Program-made: the position numbers and the translations under genes
Notes under the pieces: model-generated
Seen by the model: only the letters and a program-made list of their open reading frames with translations
Database searches by the model: none
What the model was told of the DNA's origin: nothing
Shown: positions 3,036 to 39,376 of the stretch, piece by piece
Numbering within the stretch: the first letter of the stretch is position 1
How the letters are laid out: each line of letters begins with the position of its first letter
NCBI GenBank assembly: GCA_020059915.1
Contig: JAGVBB010000003.1
Coordinates: 160,610 to 224,609 of the forward strand
Source: Minisyncoccota bacterium
GTDB taxonomy: Bacteria; Patescibacteriota; Minisyncoccia; UBA6257; GWB1-50-10
Direction of reading: 5' to 3'
DNA length: 64,000 bases

Positions 3036-3356
3036 TCACAGCTGATGCTTTTTAATATGTTTCCAGGATTTTTTTGCGTGAGCAATAATTTCCTTTTTTT
3101 CCTTTTCGGAAAGACGCTTCTTTTGTGCATATGTTTCCATTGCAGTTTTTATAAATGAATTGTATTCTTCCTCTCCAACCTGCTTCATTTTTTTAAATTG
3201 TGGGGCAATATATGCATGAAATTCTGCAGACTTCTTTTTTACATCACCCAAAAACTTTTTTGTTGATTCAGAAACAAGTATAATTCCAGCCGCAATACTC
3301 AGTGCAGCGCCAATAAGTCGTCCTTCTATAATTTTTGCTCTATTATTTTTTTTCAT
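3036..3356 (-). CDS. Hypothetical small membrane-anchored Lys-rich protein
   Basis: ORF with one N-terminal TM helix; no recognisable family. Confidence 0.35.
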   Translation of the reverse strand: MKKNNRAKIIEGRLIGAALSIAAGIILVSESTKKFLGDVKKKSAEFHAYIAPQFKKMKQVGEEEYNSFIKTAMETYAQKKRLSEKEKKEIIAHAKKSWKHIKKHQL

Positions 3357-4676: not shown

Positions 4677-4677
4677 G

Positions 4678-4748
4678 CGGGGGCAGTAGGAATCGAACCC
4701 ACATTAGCGGTTTTGGAGACCGCTGTCCTACCGTTGAACGATACCCCC
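4678..4748 (-). tRNA. trnW: tRNA-Trp (anticodon CCA)
   Basis: Hand-folded. Acceptor GGGGGTA/TGCCCCC, D-arm GTTC..GGAC, anticodon stem GCGGT/ACCGC with loop CTCCAAA, T-arm GTGGG-TTCGATT-CCTAC. Closely resembles E. coli tRNA-Trp. Confidence 0.85.
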
Positions 4749-4834: not shown

Positions 4835-5005
4835 TTACTTCTTTCCTTCCTTGTGTGGAGTCTTGGCGCGACACCAACTACAGAACTTCTCAAGCTCAAT
4901 TTTGCGTTGAACCTGTTTCTTGTTTTTTCGAGTCGTGTAATTCGCGTGCTTACATTTTGAACAACGAAGACGGATCAATTTTTCGGTAAATTTTCCCTGT
5001 GACAT
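4835..5005 (-). CDS. rpmG: 50S ribosomal protein L33
   Basis: A 56-aa ORF missed by the track: MSQGKFTEKLIRLRCSKCKHANYTTRKNKKQVQRKIELEKFCSWCRAKTPHKEGKK, with the CxxC...CxxC and YTTxKN L33 signature. The rpmG-tRNA-Trp linkage is classical. Confidence 0.75.
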   Translation of the reverse strand: MSQGKFTEKLIRLRCSKCKHANYTTRKNKKQVQRKIELEKFCSWCRAKTPHKEGKK

Positions 5006-5084
5006 AATAACGATATATAACTAATACAACTTACAATACTTTCAACAAAAAGTAAAGAAAATCACCTCTTCTTTATATTTTGTG

Positions 5085-5341
5085 AGCCGATGGTCGGGAT
5101 TGAACCGACGACCTACTCCTTCGCTTACACCTCTTTTTCTGATTACGCGTATAAGAGGACTAGACTGTATCTTTCCGCTCGTGGCGGACCCTTGTCAGTC
5201 GTTCGAGCGCATAATGCGCTACGGTCTTGACCATGCGTTGGCTATTAACCGTAATTCGGGATTCACATATGCATTGCTACATATGTGGGCAGAGAACGAG
5301 CGTTCTACCATGGAGTTGCTCTACCGCTGAGCTACATCGGC
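5085..5341 (-). tRNA. trnT: tRNA-Thr (anticodon GGU) interrupted by a 185-nt intron after position 36
   Basis: 5' exon 5307-5341 is GCCGATG-TA-GCTCAGCGGTAGAGC-A-ACTCC-ATGGT. 3' exon 5085-5121 is AA-GGAGT-AGGTC-GTCGG-TTCAATC-CCGAC-CATCGGC-T. The anticodon stem ACTCC/GGAGT and acceptor stem pair perfectly; the mature length is 72 nt. Confidence 0.7.
5122..5306 (-). ncRNA. Putative group I self-splicing intron in the tRNA-Thr(GGU) anticodon loop
   Basis: The 5' exon ends in U and the intron ends in G (omegaG). It has a P7-like GACUG...CAGUC pairing with a P8 hairpin (UCCGCC-ACGA-GCGGA), and an S-element-like AAGAUACAGUCUAGUCC (compare AAGAUAUAGUCC). The intron lies between anticodon positions 36 and 37. 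Confidence 0.55.
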
Positions 5342-5558
5342 TTATTACATTTTCAAATGCATCATATAATGCACTTCTCCATTGTACGAAAAATACAGGA
5401 AATGTCCACAATCCCCAGTTTTTAACTGCACTGAATACACTATCTCATAACCTCTGAGTTAATTTATAACTAAATAATGCCAAATTCCTAAATTAATTTT
5501 GAACTAAAAAGATATCCTCCAATAAAGATCTCAACAAATCTGATAATCAATACACCTC

Positions 5559-5600
5559 ATTGGTCCAGCTACTTCATATATGAAGTAGCTGGACCAATTA
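5559..5600. repeat. Perfect palindrome (about 19-bp arms) abutting the stop of the LAGLIDADG-like gene
   Basis: cattggtccagctacttcatat|atgaagtagctggaccaatt; it shares the outer stem TTGGTCCAGC with the palindrome at 6340-6381. Confidence 0.6.
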
Positions 5601-6323
5601 CTATTTTAACTTTTCAATTTCTTCCATCAAAATCTTTTTCAATTTTGAATTATGAAAATAAATAGTAACAACACCATGCTCACTTTTTCGTTTATACGTT
5701 CCCCTCCCTCGAAGTTTTGTCACAACGGGTTTTTGGAACTGCTCCTTTGGTACTCCCAATGATTTACACCAAAACCGCAAAATTTCTCGTTCATCTAAAT
5801 CACCAAAAATTTGTAAACCAAATTTCAATGCTTCTTTTTTTATTCCATATATTTTTTCAAGAAAATTGATAAATTGGATAATAACTCCAGGATCACTATT
5901 CCCCAACCGAATACTATTTCCCACCTTTGTTCCCTCGCCCCAGTATAGTCCAATTCCCAGGCCGAATAAAAACGAAGCATTGTTTGTTTCTGGATGATTA
6001 ACTAAAAAAGGATCTCCTCCCTTGTTTCTCTTTACATATGTCGCTTCACTTTGACTCCTTACTTGGATATTATGTGCAGTCATCCAATATATAACTTTAT
6101 GTTTTGAACATGAATAATATTCAGCAATCTCTTTCATTGATAGTCCTCGTTTTATATATAGAGTCTCCAATTCATTCTTAGAAAACGGACCACGAACTGG
6201 TGCCTTTCGTTCTTTTTTAACTTTCTTTAAAGAATCTATATATCGCAAACTTCTCTCCATTCTTTCTTTCTCCCTTTTTTCTCTCAATTTAACTGGATCA
6301 TATACTAACTTTTGTATTCCCAT
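5601..6323 (-). CDS. LAGLIDADG-type homing-endonuclease-like protein with N-terminal HTH (free-standing)
   Basis: FLFGLGIGLYWGEGTK motif and downstream KFGLQIFGDLDEREILRFW resemble LAGLIDADG/DOD-family endonucleases. HTH-like LSMKEIAEYYSCSKHKVIYWMTAHNI. The ORF is bracketed by two palindromes. Confidence 0.45.
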   Translation of the reverse strand: MGIQKLVYDPVKLREKREKERMERSLRYIDSLKKVKKERKAPVRGPFSKNELETLYIKRGLSMKEIAEYYSCSKHKVIYWMTAHNIQVRSQSEATYVKRNKGGDPFLVNHPETNNASFLFGLGIGLYWGEGTKVGNSIRLGNSDPGVIIQFINFLEKIYGIKKEALKFGLQIFGDLDEREILRFWCKSLGVPKEQFQKPVVTKLRGRGTYKRKSEHGVVTIYFHNSKLKKILMEEIEKLK

Positions 6324-6339
6324 ATCTACGGTATATCAC

Positions 6340-6381
6340 TCATTGGTCCAGCAATGTTGTATACAACATTGCTGGACCAAT
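6340..6381. repeat. Perfect palindrome upstream of the LAGLIDADG-like gene (partner of 5559-5600)
   Basis: cattggtccagcaatgttgtat|acaacattgctggaccaatg. Confidence 0.6.
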
Positions 6382-6486
6382 GCTTTTCCCATGCCACTAT
6401 AATTTTATCCAAAGAAAATCTCTTACGAGAATTGCATCAGAAATAAATTTTTGGTACATTAGATGGAGGAACTTTATTGTTCCTAT

Positions 6487-6558
6487 GCCACCTTAGCTCA
6501 GCGGTAGAGCAACGCTTTTGTAAAGCGAAGGTCCTCGGTTCAAATCCGAGAGGTGGCT
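6487..6558 (+). tRNA. trnT: tRNA-Thr (anticodon UGU)
   Basis: Hand-folded. GCCACCT-TA-GCTCAGCGGTAGAGC-A-ACGCT-TTTGTAA-AGCGA-AGGTC-CTCGG-TTCAAAT-CCGAG-AGGTGGC-T. Similar to E. coli tRNA-Thr(UGU). Confidence 0.85.
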
Positions 6559-6567
6559 CAAAAAATA

Positions 6568-6597
6568 AAACACCCGGTCATCCGACTGGGTGTTTTT
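6568..6597. terminator. Bidirectional terminator hairpin between tRNA-Thr(UGU) and the MFS gene 3' end
   Basis: acaccc...gggtgt stem followed by a T6 run; an A-run lies on the other side. Confidence 0.5.
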
Positions 6598-8162: not shown

Positions 8163-8413
8163 CGCAGGGGAGGATTCTCCTCTCACTCTGCTGAGTTCGA
8201 GACCTACGGCTTCAAAATCAAAGGATGCGGGTCGCGATGTTTTTTGGGGAGGATTTTCCTCACCCGTCACTTTCGCTCCTCCTTCGGAATCCAGGGTTCC
8301 TCGCTTTCGTTCGTTTCACTCACTCTTCGCATTCGCGCGCTCGGATACCCTTCGAATCCTCCTAGACATGAAACTAAAAAAGAAAGGACAAGTCCTTTCT
8401 TTTTTAGTTTGTG
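8163..8413 (-). repeat. tRNA-Tyr 3'-end pseudo-copy (8163-8177) plus about 235-bp insert; member of the gene-3'-end-associated element family
   Basis: cgcaggggaggattc is identical to the tRNA-Tyr 3' acceptor/T-arm 15-mer. The adjacent block ctctcactctgctgagttcgagacctacggcttc is paralogous to the tRNA-Trp locus block. A diverged match (cgctttcgttcgtttcactcactc) to the rplK/rpsI module is present, about 11/19 ungapped. Confidence 0.45.
8376..8406 (-). terminator. Terminator hairpin (aaaggac/gtccttt) directly 3' of tRNA-Tyr
   Basis: 7-bp stem flanked by A- and T-runs. Confidence 0.5.
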
Positions 8414-10651: not shown

Positions 10652-11346
10652 CTCCACTCTTCTATTAGCTTATGATTTCCAGATTGAAGCACCTCAGGTA
10701 CTTTCCAAATTTTTTTTCGTTTTCCTTTTTCTTGAATCACTACTTCCGCAGGTTTTGTATATACCGGATACGAACCCTTTATTTCTTCTAACGATTCCGT
10801 TTTTCCTAACACTCCAGGAATCTGACGCGATACTGCATCCATCACCACAAGTGCAGGTAATTCACCACCAGAAAGCACAAAATCTCCTATTGAGACCTCC
10901 TCATCTGCAATATATTCCGCAACACGTTCGTCTACTCCTTCATAGCGACCACAAATAAAAATGAGATGATTATATTTTGAAAGTCGCTTTGCATCCTCAT
11001 TGGTAAACACTTTTCCTCGTGTTGAAAACAAAATGGTTCGGCTCTGCTCACCACGGGCTGTTCGTGTTTTTCCCTTTTTTATTTTTGATAATACTTTTTC
11101 TACCGCTTTATAAATCGGTTCAACCTTGAGCACCATCCCCGGTCCTCCCCCGTATGGTGATTCATCAGTTATTTTATGTTTTCCCAATCCAAACTGGCGA
11201 AGTGCTACTGGATTTATTTTTATTAATTTCTTTTCTTGTGCGCGTCCAATAATTGAAGCATTACAGTATGACTCCAAAGATTCTGGAAATAACGAGATAA
11301 TGTGAAATGTTTTCATTGTCTTGCTTATTGAAACTATACCAAACAA
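10630..11346 (-). CDS. trmD: tRNA (guanine37-N1)-methyltransferase
   Basis: SPOUT/TrmD motifs (ISIGDFVLSGGELPALVVMDAVSRQIPGVLG). Confidence 0.85.
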   Translation of the reverse strand: MFGIVSISKTMKTFHIISLFPESLESYCNASIIGRAQEKKLIKINPVALRQFGLGKHKITDESPYGGGPGMVLKVEPIYKAVEKVLSKIKKGKTRTARGEQSRTILFSTRGKVFTNEDAKRLSKYNHLIFICGRYEGVDERVAEYIADEEVSIGDFVLSGGELPALVVMDAVSRQIPGVLGKTESLEEIKGSYPVYTKPAEVVIQEKGKRKKIWKVPEVLQSGNHKLIEEWRKNKQQS

Positions 11347-11382
11347 AAACCCCGCCAGTCCATGGACCGGCGGGATTCTTTT

Positions 11383-39303: not shown

Positions 39304-39346
39304 CTAGAACTTGTTTATACTATCATCCAAGCCCATCAAACTCAAA

Positions 39347-39376
39347 CCCCGCCACTCCATGGAGTGGCGGGGTTTT
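39347..39376. terminator. Bidirectional terminator (ccccgccactcc-at-ggagtggcgggg)
   Basis: 12-bp perfect stem followed by TTTT; lies between rplL and tRNA-Val. Confidence 0.6.

What the first reader, a model, noticed from the sequence alone, without database searches (positions are those of the whole stretch)
5559..6381. LAGLIDADG-like endonuclease gene bracketed by two perfect 40-bp palindromes, wedged between two tRNA-Thr genes
The 240-aa ORF has an HTH plus LAGLIDADG-like architecture (GLGIGLYWGEG). It is flanked on each side by a perfect palindrome: cattggtccagctacttcatat|atgaagtagctggaccaatt at its 3' end and cattggtccagcaatgttgtat|acaacattgctggaccaatg at its 5' end. The two palindromes share the outer 10-bp stem TTGGTCCAGC but have different inner stems. 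Such symmetric bracketing suggests a mobile cassette or a paired terminator and cleavage-site arrangement. The palindromes could also be the endonuclease's own recognition sites. The cassette sits between tRNA-Thr(UGU) and the intron-containing tRNA-Thr(GGU).
Basis: partly seen in the sequence, partly recalled or inferred. Interest (0 to 1): 0.6.

Follow-up and report, generated by a model that had tools for sequence, protein, structure and literature searches.

The report
tRNA-docked LAGLIDADG endonuclease gene cassette
The gene belongs to a large, unnamed family of probable selfish DNA-cutting enzyme genes in ultra-small (Patescibacteria) bacteria that always sit at the front end of one threonine tRNA gene, and the two palindromes mark the exact edges of the piece that a close relative lacks.

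Summary
A 240-aa ORF (5601-6323, minus strand) lies between perfect palindromes of 40 bp (5559-5598) and 42 bp (6341-6382). It sits between tRNA-Thr(UGU) and an intron-containing tRNA-Thr(GGU).

The main result is context. In 76 of 80 Patescibacteria species, relatives lie directly 5' of tRNA-Thr(GGU). In 35 of them the stop codon is tRNA nucleotides 8-10. Fifty-four of these tRNAs carry the known ORF-less group I intron. A paralogous family docks on tRNA-Trp in the same way, and distant relatives sit in tRNA arrays of large viral contigs.

A relative with about 80% nucleotide identity has one palindrome and no ORF. The window differs by 783 bp bounded by 14-bp direct repeats inside the palindromes. 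Two further relatives lack ORF, palindromes and intron.

The upstream palindrome is homologous to a covarying inverted repeat just upstream of the family's promoter, so an autoregulatory operator is likely.

Best reading: a free-standing homing-endonuclease cassette targeting a tRNA gene. Cleavage activity and target are untested.

The parts
5601..6323 (-). 240-aa ORF. It has an N-terminal K/E-rich helix (aa 10-38), an HTH domain (about aa 48-99) and a single LAGLIDADG-like domain (about aa 110-240) with the motif GLGIGLYWGEG and E130.
6341..6382 (.). Palindrome B, a perfect 42-bp palindrome ending 2 nt upstream of the extended -10-like box of the ORF. It is homologous to the ATTGG-N6...N6-CCAAT inverted repeat found upstream of relatives.
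   Evidence: for the palindrome itself. Architecture shared with L001, L007, L013, L017, L020, L056 and L060. The arms covary across 13 species, and no shuffle of 500 reaches the observed score. It is 41/42 identical in relative L100, whereas the flanks are 54-65% identical.
6330..6338 (-). Extended -10-like box TGATATACC, 6 nt upstream of the ATG. This suggests a leaderless-type promoter, though the box is weaker here than the TGATATAAT of relatives.
   Evidence: 46 family loci carry TGnTAnnnT 3-13 nt (mostly 6-8) upstream of the start codon.
5559..5598 (.). Palindrome A, a perfect 40-bp palindrome starting 2 nt after the ORF stop codon. It has the same 11-bp outer arms as B and a different inner 18 bp.
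   Evidence: As RNA it folds into a hairpin within a -44.9 kcal/mol structure. Other family loci have no equivalent, because there the ORF abuts the tRNA.
5556..5569 (+). 14-bp direct repeat CTCATTGGTCCAGC, copy 1. It is one boundary of the 783-bp segment absent from relative L100.
   Evidence: (family D1) and alignment A2.
6339..6352 (+). 14-bp direct repeat CTCATTGGTCCAGC, copy 2, the other boundary of the insertion/deletion difference.
5084..5341 (-). tRNA-Thr(GGU) with a 185-nt ORF-less group I intron after position 36. The intron is at 5121-5305 and the exons at 5306-5341 and 5084-5120.
   Evidence: ARAGORN with its intron option. Splice reconstruction gives a 73-nt mature tRNA identical to the intron-less alleles of L114 and L115. 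Introns of this type at this tRNA position are described in PMC13011429.
5381..5408 (-). Promoter-like site TGGACA-16-TACAAT, about 40 nt upstream of tRNA-Thr(GGU). It gives the tRNA its own promoter.
   Evidence: 10 of 12 consensus positions matched. The block is conserved in L100 at 81%.
6487..6559 (+). tRNA-Thr(UGU), transcribed divergently from the ORF. Its terminator is at 6567-6596.
4835..5005 (-). rpmG (ribosomal protein L33), the conserved downstream neighbour. The family-wide gene order is ORF, tRNA-Thr(GGU), rpmG, tRNA-Trp.
   Evidence: and the gene contexts.
4677..4748 (-). tRNA-Trp. In this genome it has no docked paralogue upstream; only 86 nt separate it from rpmG.
   Evidence: Contrast with L100 and L115.

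Best explanation
The ORF is a free-standing, single-domain (presumably homodimeric) LAGLIDADG-type homing-endonuclease gene with an N-terminal HTH DNA-binding module. It belongs to an unnamed Patescibacteria-wide family that lives immediately 5' of the tRNA-Thr(GGU) gene.

Shown:
- The fold and motif are LAGLIDADG-like.
- The family is anchored to tRNA-Thr(GGU), and in about half the species the stop codon is tRNA nucleotides 8-10.
- It frequently co-occurs with an ORF-less group I intron at position 36/37 of that tRNA.
- Close relatives differ in presence or absence of the ORF.
- A paralogous family docks on tRNA-Trp.
- Distant relatives lie in tRNA arrays of large viral contigs.

Inferred:
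- The enzyme cuts ORF-less or intron-less tRNA-Thr alleles, so that double-strand-break repair copies the ORF (and the intron) into them.
- The intron, or sequence variants in the tRNA, protect the carrier allele. This is 'collaborative homing'.
- Palindrome B is the family's promoter-proximal inverted repeat. It most likely acts as an operator where the dimeric protein binds without cutting and represses its own promoter, as I-TevI does.
- Palindrome A is a diverged second copy placed after the stop codon.
- The shared arms form direct repeats, and recombination across them removed the ORF in the relative's lineage.
For: Fold and motif:
- The AlphaFold2 model has pLDDT 89.9.
- GLYWGEG with E130 is invariant in 31 sequences.
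- LAGLIDADG_3 is hit below threshold in 8 of 31 members, and NUMOD1 in 2 of 31.
- The HTH region matches phage 'HNH endonuclease' PHROGs at E 1e-8.

Anchoring to tRNA genes:
- Of 80 GTDB species loci, 76 have tRNA-Thr(GGU) downstream on the same strand. Thirty-five have the stop codon at tRNA positions 8-10, and 35 lie 1-60 nt upstream. Fifty-four tRNAs have the intron and 22 do not.
- The Trp-type paralogue shows the same geometry in L100, L115 and L117-L119.
- All eight distant relatives on viral contigs lie inside tRNA arrays.

Mobility:
- L100 is 77-85% identical in nucleotide sequence and syntenic. It has the intron-containing tRNA and one palindrome but no ORF. The difference is exactly 783 bp between the 14-bp repeats.
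- L114 and L115 have an intron-less, inverted tRNA-Thr(GGU) with an identical mature sequence, and no ORF or palindrome.
- L114 is the closest relative of L100 (85-90% identity), so the cassette's distribution conflicts with relatedness.
- The tRNA-Trp alleles next to the paralogue are identical in L100 and L115 but only 71-76% identical to ORF-less alleles.

Operator:
- Palindrome B aligns with the inverted repeat plus TGATATAAT plus ATG architecture of relatives.
- Across 11 arm pairs, 86% of cells are paired and 7 pairs show changes on both sides. No shuffle of 500 reaches this, and GG/CC are invariant.
- In L001 and L007 the repeat copies 17 and 13 nt of the tRNA-Thr D-arm and anticodon stem. 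This parallels the similarity between the I-TevI operator and its homing site.

Precedents: segB in the T4 tRNA cluster and I-TevI autorepression (PMC2988022); collaborative homing (PMC6083498, PMC2790892).
Against: - No nuclease activity, target site or dimerisation was tested.
- No Pfam LAGLIDADG model reaches its threshold. Foldseek and sequence searches against the PDB found nothing.
- All 80 retrieved ORFs are intact, and 33 residues are invariant. That also fits a domesticated host protein. The scan did select for conserved motifs, which biases the sample.
- 22 loci have the ORF without an intron, and L100 has the intron without the ORF. The intron link is therefore statistical, not obligate.
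- Three intron-less alleles next to an ORF (L013, L017, L029) keep the TCC-ATGGTAA-GGA core typical of intron-bearing alleles.
- The operator model does not explain why the inner 18 bp of palindromes A, B and C are each perfectly palindromic yet differ from one another.
- It also does not explain why B stays 41/42 identical in the ORF-less L100, or why a third copy (L090) sits at an unrelated intergenic site.
- The -10 box in this window (TATACC) is weak.
Confidence: 0.55

Rival explanations
1. The protein is a domesticated regulator, not a mobile nuclease. It would be a WhiA-like LAGLIDADG-plus-HTH DNA-binding factor retained by Patescibacteria to control the tRNA-Thr(GGU)-rpmG-tRNA-Trp-secE region, and the palindromes would be its operators.
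For: - The gene has a conserved position in 76 of 80 species.
- All 80 ORFs are intact, and 33 residues are invariant.
- Palindrome B is conserved even in the ORF-less L100.
- The palindromes lie 50-150 nt upstream of tRNA promoters.
Against: - The metal-binding acidic residue of the LAGLIDADG motif is invariant. WhiA has lost it (own knowledge).
- Close relatives L100, L114 and L115 do without the gene.
- The gene was detected in only 314 GTDB species.
- A paralogue docks on a different tRNA, and distant relatives sit in viral tRNA arrays.
- The HTH resembles modules of phage homing endonucleases.
Confidence: 0.2
2. The palindromes act at the RNA level. They would be 5' and 3' stem-loops of the ORF's mRNA that stabilise it, block translation, or serve as RNase III or terminator signals insulating the gene from the neighbouring tRNAs.
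For: - Both fold into perfect 18-19-bp stems capped by a 4-nt loop, with z-scores of -5.7 and -8.5.
- The inner stems differ between copies but stay perfectly paired. This argues for selection on pairing.
- The single mismatch in the L100 copy would be a G-U pair on the ORF-sense strand.
- Very stable hairpins upstream of homing-endonuclease genes are known in T4-like phages (PMC2988022).
- Palindrome A scores as terminator-like.
Against: - Palindrome B lies upstream of the extended -10 box, and the ATG follows that box by 6 nt. The ORF's own transcript would therefore not contain B.
- B sits between divergently transcribed genes, so it cannot be a terminator.
- The T-rich tail of A is on the strand that has no upstream gene.
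- All 8 outer arms (11-12 nt) are identical in sequence across two genomes that differ by about 20%. Pairing alone does not require that.
- In relatives the element has a 19-nt unpaired spacer of constant length.
Confidence: 0.15
3. The palindromes are the endonuclease's own cleavage (homing) sites, or the recombination sites of a small palindrome-bounded mobile element, comparable to an integron attC site or a REP or MITE element.
For: - A homodimeric LAGLIDADG enzyme with two flanking HTH modules would recognise a long symmetric site of about 40 bp (inference).
- The ORF-less allele L100 retains one intact palindrome at exactly the junction.
- A third copy exists at an unrelated locus of that same genome.
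Against: - Intact cleavage sites on both sides of an active nuclease gene would be cut in the carrier genome. Homing normally splits or removes the site.
- No recombinase lies next to the cassette, and there is no GTTRRRY core of the attC type (direct reading of the sequence).
- Only two copies occur in 64 kb. Only three related loci appeared in the whole metagenome collection; the other 23 pattern hits were unrelated.
- Palindrome B belongs to the promoter architecture inherited with the gene across distant species.
Confidence: 0.08
4. The protein is a maturase that helps the divergent group I intron of tRNA-Thr(GGU) to splice.
For: - LAGLIDADG maturases exist (own knowledge).
- 54 of 76 neighbouring tRNAs carry the intron.
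- The intron is too divergent for Rfam RF00028 (PMC13011429).
Against: - 22 loci keep the ORF next to an intron-less tRNA.
- L100 keeps a 91%-identical intron without the ORF.
- The Trp-type paralogue docks on an intron-less tRNA.
- The protein carries a DNA-type HTH and retains the catalytic acidic residue.
Confidence: 0.04

Closest known systems
Single-motif homodimeric LAGLIDADG homing endonucleases (I-CreI, I-CeuI, I-MsoI, I-Vdi141I)
   Different: These genes are free-standing rather than intron- or intein-encoded. They carry an extra N-terminal HTH domain and, in this subclade, a K/E-rich helix. They fall below all Pfam LAGLIDADG thresholds. Activity, dimer state and target are unknown.
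Free-standing homing endonucleases in phage tRNA clusters, and collaborative homing (T4 SegB; F-CphI next to the psbA intron; mobE with I-TevIII)
   Same: The nuclease gene lies beside the conserved gene it presumably targets, rather than inside it. Its neighbour is a tRNA gene, as with SegB. An adjacent ORF-less group I intron could provide immunity and be co-mobilised, as with F-CphI and mobE (PMC2988022, PMC6083498, PMC2790892).
   Different: The catalytic family differs: LAGLIDADG versus GIY-YIG, HNH or EndoVII. The hosts are cellular, reduced-genome bacteria rather than phages. The gene is docked at nucleotide precision on the tRNA 5' end, with the stop codon inside the tRNA. I found no description of that arrangement for any homing endonuclease.
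I-TevI autorepression (an operator that mimics the homing site and overlaps the endonuclease's own promoter)
   Same: An inverted repeat lies directly upstream of the -10 box of the endonuclease gene. In L001 and L007 it copies 13-17 nt of the presumed target gene, tRNA-Thr. An HTH-type binding module is separate from the catalytic domain.
   Different: Binding was not shown here. The operator is a symmetric two-half-site element with a 30-bp centre-to-centre spacing, and in this window it is a perfect palindrome and is duplicated.
WhiA (a domesticated LAGLIDADG-plus-HTH transcription factor)
   Different: WhiA has two degenerate LAGLIDADG domains without catalytic acidic residues and a C-terminal HTH, and it is near-universal in Gram-positive bacteria (own knowledge). 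This family has one domain, an invariant glutamate and an N-terminal HTH, and its distribution is patchy.

Membership tests
LAGLIDADG endonuclease superfamily | Alpha-beta-beta-alpha-beta-beta-alpha core fold | tested here: met
LAGLIDADG endonuclease superfamily | Motif helix ending in a conserved acidic residue (D or E) that binds the catalytic metal | tested here: met
   The motif LFGLGIGLYWGEG lies at the end of helix 114-130. G129, E130 and G131 are invariant in 31 sequences.
LAGLIDADG endonuclease superfamily | Significant match to a curated LAGLIDADG sequence profile (Pfam LAGLIDADG_1, _2 or _3) | tested here: not met
   The window protein has no hit. LAGLIDADG_3 is hit only below threshold in 8 of 31 members, best E 0.014. 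The Trp-type paralogue scores E 0.1.
LAGLIDADG endonuclease superfamily | Site-specific double-strand DNA cleavage leaving 4-nt 3' overhangs; homodimer for single-motif enzymes | not testable with these tools
   This needs a biochemical assay.
Homing endonuclease gene (selfish, mobile) | Presence or absence differs at the same locus among close relatives, and the distribution conflicts with relatedness | tested here: met
   The window has the ORF. L100 has an empty site with one palindrome. L114 and L115 have no cassette. L114 is the closest relative of L100.
Homing endonuclease gene (selfish, mobile) | Degenerate or pseudogenised copies, as expected from the gain-decay-loss cycle | tested here: not met
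   All 80 retrieved ORFs are intact by tblastn. Retrieval required conserved peptide motifs, so decayed copies would have been missed.
Collaborative homing (free-standing endonuclease plus ORF-less intron) | The endonuclease gene lies adjacent to a gene interrupted by an ORF-less group I intron | tested here: met
   54 of 76 downstream tRNA-Thr(GGU) genes carry a 165-229-nt intron at position 36/37. The intron type is described in PMC13011429.
Collaborative homing (free-standing endonuclease plus ORF-less intron) | The enzyme cleaves the intron-less allele at or near the intron insertion site, and the intron disrupts the recognition site | not testable with these tools
   There is only indirect support. 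The repeat upstream of the gene in L001 and L007 copies tRNA positions 16-33, next to the insertion site.
Intrinsic terminators | A G+C-rich hairpin followed by a U-tract, placed downstream of a transcription unit | tested here: not met
   Palindrome B lies between divergent genes. Palindrome A has a T-rich tail only on the plus strand, where no gene lies upstream. Canonical terminators in this window look different, for example 6567-6596.
WhiA family | Two LAGLIDADG-like domains lacking catalytic acidic residues, plus a C-terminal HTH | tested here: not met
   This protein has a single domain, an invariant E130 and an N-terminal HTH.
Repeated palindromic elements (REP, MITE or integron attC) | Many dispersed copies per genome, or an associated recombinase with conserved core sites | tested here: inconclusive
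   There are two copies in this 64-kb window. A related 746-kb contig has two loci, one at the syntenic site and one elsewhere. The rest of the source genome could not be searched.

The most novel reading that the evidence does not exclude
Patescibacteria, and some large phage-like contigs, would harbour an undescribed superfamily of free-standing LAGLIDADG homing endonucleases that specialise in tRNA genes. The genes dock on the tRNA 5' end so precisely that the tRNA's conserved U8-A9-G10 serves as their stop codon. RNase P processing of the tRNA would then cut the stop codon off the endonuclease mRNA, coupling and limiting its expression.

These enzymes would mobilise tRNA alleles. For tRNA-Thr(GGU) they would also mobilise the ORF-less 'divergent' group I intron by collaborative homing. 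A palindromic operator that mimics the target would keep the nuclease repressed.
Probability: 0.35. Interest if true: 0.8.

Novelty: new variant of a known kind. Interest (0 to 1): 0.62.

Why it matters
A 2026 survey (PMC13011429) concluded that tRNA introns of Patescibacteria mostly lack homing-endonuclease genes and are therefore barely mobile. It also treated the tRNA-Thr(GGU) introns as an oddity. This analysis shows a conserved, unannotated LAGLIDADG-like gene directly beside that tRNA in hundreds of species. The gene could be the missing mobility factor, and it makes collaborative homing testable in cellular genomes.

The nucleotide-precise overlap of a protein-coding stop codon with tRNA positions 8-10, seen in two paralogous families, is a new gene arrangement. 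It has an obvious and testable regulatory consequence through RNase P and trans-translation.

The family also offers compact HTH-plus-single-LAGLIDADG scaffolds with long symmetric candidate sites. In addition, it explains why annotation pipelines miss both the tRNA and the gene's identity.

Tried and rejected
Searches that found nothing:
- Pfam and NCBIfam on the ORF gave only weak HTH hits.
- An HMM profile of the family against PDB sequences gave nothing relevant.
- Rfam found no family for the intron or the palindromes; the microRNA hits are hairpin artefacts.
- The window's own contig is not on record for exact look-up and is not in the scanned collections.
- tblastn against GenBank phages gave no match.
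- Of the 26 metagenome hits to the palindrome pattern, 23 are unrelated hairpins in high-GC contigs.

Ideas rejected:
- That the upstream inverted repeat is in general a copy of the tRNA. This is significant only in L001, L007 and marginally L013. L076 also scores but is probably a real upstream tRNA gene. It is not significant in this window.
- That intron-less alleles next to the ORF always differ in the anticodon stem. L013, L017 and L029 keep the core.
- That the palindromes are terminators.
- That the protein is a maturase.
- That additional family copies exist in the window. An hmmsearch of all six-frame ORFs finds only this one.
Full report
**1. Observation**

The window comes from a Candidatus Parcubacteria (Patescibacteria/CPR) contig. 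The ORF product is identical to NCBI hypothetical protein C4565_10905.

The features are as follows.
- The 240-aa ORF is at 5601-6323 on the minus strand.
- Palindrome A is a perfect 40-bp palindrome at 5559-5598. It starts 2 nt after the stop codon.
- Palindrome B is a perfect 42-bp palindrome at 6341-6382. It ends 17 nt before the ATG.
- A and B share the 11-bp outer arm ATTGGTCCAGC. On one side they share a 14-bp direct repeat, CTCATTGGTCCAGC, spaced 783 bp apart. Their inner 18 bp differ.

About 2e-7 such palindromes are expected by chance. The 10-mer TTGGTCCAGC occurs nowhere else in the 64 kb.

tRNA-Thr(UGU) is at 6487-6559. The intron-containing tRNA-Thr(GGU) is at 5084-5341 on the minus strand, with a 185-nt intron after position 36. 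Default ARAGORN and Rfam miss it. ARAGORN run with its intron option finds it. Such 'divergent group I introns' at 36/37 of Patescibacteria tRNA-Thr(GGU), invisible to RF00028, are already published (PMC13011429).

**2. The protein**

Sequence-profile searches gave no assignment.
- Pfam and NCBIfam give only weak HTH hits.
- A profile of the family finds no solved structure by sequence.

The structure prediction does give an assignment.
- With 31 homologues, the AlphaFold2 model is confident (pLDDT 89.9).
- It shows a long N-terminal helix, a three-helix HTH region, and an alpha/beta domain whose first helix (114-130) ends in GLYWGEG.
- Foldseek found nothing.

G129-E130-G131, Q171 and 30 other residues are invariant in the alignment. 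The metal-binding acidic residue that defines active LAGLIDADG enzymes is therefore retained.

Several weaker matches agree. LAGLIDADG_3 is hit below threshold in 8 of 31 members and NUMOD1 in 2. The HTH region matches two PHROG families annotated 'HNH endonuclease' at E about 1e-8. That is the kind of DNA-binding module that phage homing endonucleases share.

**3. What the family does in genomes**

The family is large and confined to Patescibacteria.
- There are 426 or more clusters at 90% identity.
- Relatives occur in 314 GTDB species.
- A profile search of 1.84 billion representatives gives 154 proteins at E<=1e-30 and 2,846 at E<=1e-10. Many of the weaker hits, and some of the strong ones, come from the HTH module alone.

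In 76 of 80 species loci, the gene is followed on the same strand by tRNA-Thr(GGU). The positions relative to the tRNA are:
- In 35 loci the stop codon TAG is tRNA nucleotides 8-10. The last codons (LPM, LPL, MPM and similar) are read from the acceptor stem.
- In 3 loci the stop lies in the D-loop.
- In 35 loci the tRNA starts 1-60 nt after the stop.
- In 3 loci it starts more than 60 nt after the stop.

Fifty-four of these tRNAs carry the intron and 22 do not. rpmG and tRNA-Trp follow. The window has a 259-nt spacer and a palindrome after the stop codon, which makes it the extreme outlier.

A paralogous family is 30% identical over the LAGLIDADG domain (E 4e-13) and has 104 members. It sits between rpmG and tRNA-Trp. 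In all four checked genomes that overlap this way, its stop codon is at nucleotides 8-10 of tRNA-Trp or further inside the tRNA. Some genomes carry both families.

Eight distant relatives (22-32% identity, GLYWGEG retained) occur on IMG/VR contigs of 100-497 kb. All eight lie inside dense tRNA arrays.

**4. Comparative evidence on the cassette and the palindromes**

A metagenome-wide scan for the palindrome pattern gave 26 hits, of which 23 are unrelated. The three real hits are as follows.
- L100 is the syntenic locus of a relative with 77-85% nucleotide identity. L097 is the same locus from another sample.
- L090 is a second site on the same 746-kb contig.

L100 contains tRNA-Trp, a Trp-type paralogue, rpmG, tRNA-Thr(GGU) with a 186-nt intron (91% identical to the window's), one palindrome, and tRNA-Thr(UGU). 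It has no Thr-type ORF. Its palindrome is 41/42 identical to B. Its flank on the tRNA-Thr(GGU) side matches the flank of A, and its other flank matches that of B (alignment A2). The two genomes therefore differ by exactly the 783 bp between the 14-bp direct repeats.

B belongs to the gene's promoter architecture in distant relatives (section 5). The simplest history is therefore that L100 lost the ORF by recombination between A and B.

Neighbours of the adjacent MFS gene led to two more relatives, L114 (GCA_041659005.1) and L115. Both have an intron-less tRNA-Thr(GGU) with a mature sequence 100% identical to the window's. In both it is inverted and in tandem with tRNA-Thr(UGU), with no ORF and no palindrome.

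L114 is the closest relative of L100 (85-90% identity). The window and L115 are each about 77-80% identical to all the others. The cassette state is therefore incongruent with relatedness. That favours horizontal acquisition of a block of about 1.4 kb containing palindrome, ORF and intron-bearing tRNA. The alternative is two independent, identical losses.

For tRNA-Trp the pattern is similar. The two genomes with the docked paralogue (L100 and L115) have identical tRNA-Trp genes, but these are only 71-76% identical to the ORF-less alleles. The ORF and its tRNA allele travel together.

**5. What the palindromes are**

In 46 family loci, an extended -10 box (TGnTAnnnT) lies 3-13 nt (mostly 6-8) before the start codon, which suggests leaderless transcripts.

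Directly upstream, at least 13 species have an inverted repeat of the form ATTGG-N6, then a spacer of about 19 nt containing a TATAAT-like box, then N6-CCAAT. Palindrome B aligns to it almost position for position:
- L001: ATTGGTAGAGC-19-GCTCTACCAATGTATGATATAATGTACGTATG
- window: ATTGGTCCAGC-18-GCTGGACCAATGAGTGATATACCGTAGATATG

The arms covary. 86% of cells are paired, 7 of 11 pairs have changes on both sides, and no shuffle of 500 reaches the observed score. GG and CC are invariant.

This position is where an operator would lie, spanning roughly -18 to -59 if transcription starts at the ATG. A dimeric HTH protein encoded just downstream is the obvious candidate to bind it. I-TevI represses its own promoter in this way through an operator that resembles its homing site (PMC2988022). 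In L001 and L007 the repeat copies 17 and 13 nt of the tRNA-Thr D-arm and anticodon stem, which hints that the tRNA gene is the true target. This similarity is absent in most loci, including the window.

B cannot be a terminator, because it lies between divergent genes. The T-rich tail of A is on the wrong strand.

Three points remain unexplained.
- The inner 18 bp of A, B and the third copy C (L090) differ at 3-5 of 9 positions per half, yet each is perfectly palindromic. All eight outer arms are identical.
- B is almost unchanged in the ORF-less L100, although its flanks are only 54-65% identical.
- C lies at an unrelated intergenic site.

These points keep two readings alive: an RNA or cruciform structure, and an independent palindromic repeat family.

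**6. Mechanism proposed**

Shown:
- the fold and motif;
- anchoring of the family to the tRNA gene;
- the stop codon lying inside the tRNA;
- co-occurrence with the intron;
- the insertion/deletion difference bounded by the repeats;
- linkage between the ORF and its tRNA allele;
- the conserved, covarying repeat next to the promoter.

Inferred:
- The protein is an active homodimeric endonuclease that cuts ORF-less tRNA-Thr(GGU) loci.
- Repair copies the ORF with the adjacent tRNA allele and intron.
- The intron or tRNA sequence variants protect the carrier, as in collaborative homing with F-CphI or mobE (PMC6083498, PMC2790892).
- The protein represses itself at B, and perhaps at A.
- In the overlapping arrangement, RNase P cleavage at the tRNA 5' end would remove the last three codons and the stop codon from the mRNA. 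This would limit expression. The inference rests on established RNase P and trans-translation biology and was not tested.

**7. Novelty**

Homing endonucleases, free-standing endonuclease genes in tRNA clusters (T4 segB) and collaborative homing are all known. Three things appear to be undescribed in the literature I could search:
- an unnamed LAGLIDADG-plus-HTH family spread through Patescibacteria;
- its nucleotide-precise docking on tRNA 5' ends, in two paralogous families;
- its adjacency to the tRNA-Thr intron, which the 2026 survey considered to lack an endonuclease gene.

I rate this a new variant of a known kind. My confidence in the overall reading is about 0.55. The main rival is a domesticated WhiA-like regulator, at about 0.2.

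Noticed in passing
L100 630-1337 (-); L115 5827-6534; L117 1501-2163; L118 1501-2169; L119 1501-2148: A paralogous HTH plus LAGLIDADG-like family lies between rpmG and tRNA-Trp. It is 30% identical to the window ORF over the nuclease domain and has 104 members. Its stop codon lies inside tRNA-Trp, at positions 8-10 in L117-L119. The window lacks it; only 86 nt separate rpmG from tRNA-Trp.
   Followed up: yes
window 4677-4748 compared with L100 608-680, L114 4197-4268 and L115 6484-6556: tRNA-Trp is 100% identical in the two genomes that carry the docked paralogue, but only 71-76% identical to the ORF-less alleles. In contrast, tRNA-Thr(GGU), tRNA-Thr(UGU) and tRNA-Tyr are 94-100% identical in all four genomes. 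This suggests the ORF and its tRNA allele are inherited as a unit.
   Followed up: partly
L120-L127 (IMG/VR contigs of 100-497 kb): Eight distant relatives (22-32% identity, GLYWGEG retained) all sit inside dense tRNA gene arrays. Several overlap the 3' end of a tRNA on the opposite strand, and their C-termini read as antisense T-arm sequence, for example EGIEPT and AGFEPAS.
   Followed up: partly
P0242, P0244, P0257 and others: The roughly 45-aa HTH module of the family also occurs as 5-14 tandem repeats in proteins of 400-820 aa of unknown function.
   Followed up: no
L090 3931-3968 (same 746-kb contig as L100): A third perfect palindrome has the same outer arms and an intermediate inner sequence (TACATTGTA|TACAATGTA). 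It lies between a uvrC-like gene and a 198-aa hypothetical gene. No family ORF is nearby.
   Followed up: partly
window 8371-8410: An A/T-rich palindrome with 19-bp arms (AAACTAAAAAAGAAAGGAC aa GTCCTTTCTTTTTTAGTTT) lies 3 nt downstream of tRNA-Tyr. It looks like a bidirectional terminator.
   Followed up: no
window 39344-39375 and about 11346-11377; L090 9798-9827; L007 63-92; L115 2828-2857: A G+C-rich perfect palindrome with a CCATGG centre (AAACCCCGCCACTCCATGGAGTGGCGGGGTTT and close variants) recurs within this genome and in distant Patescibacteria. It is a conserved terminator-like repeat family.
   Followed up: no
L039 about 3080-3215; L066 about 3070-3130; L013, L058 and L081 just after the ORF stop: In several species the ORF ends in a duplicated copy of the tRNA 5' end (for example GCCAATGTAG). 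A short hairpin-containing insert follows, and only then the real tRNA. These look like intermediate steps in uncoupling the ORF from the tRNA.
   Followed up: no
L114 3576-3788; L115 5288-5451: In two close relatives, tRNA-Thr(GGU) is intron-less, inverted relative to the window, and in tandem with tRNA-Thr(UGU). Its mature sequence is nevertheless identical to the window's. It is a natural intron-less, ORF-less 'recipient' allele.
   Followed up: yes
window 5084-5341 and most of L001-L086: Default ARAGORN and Rfam miss the intron-containing tRNA-Thr(GGU). With its intron option, ARAGORN often miscalls it as tRNA-Arg(gcg) or tRNA-His(gtg) with a shifted intron. PMC13011429 reports the same problem.
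   Followed up: yes
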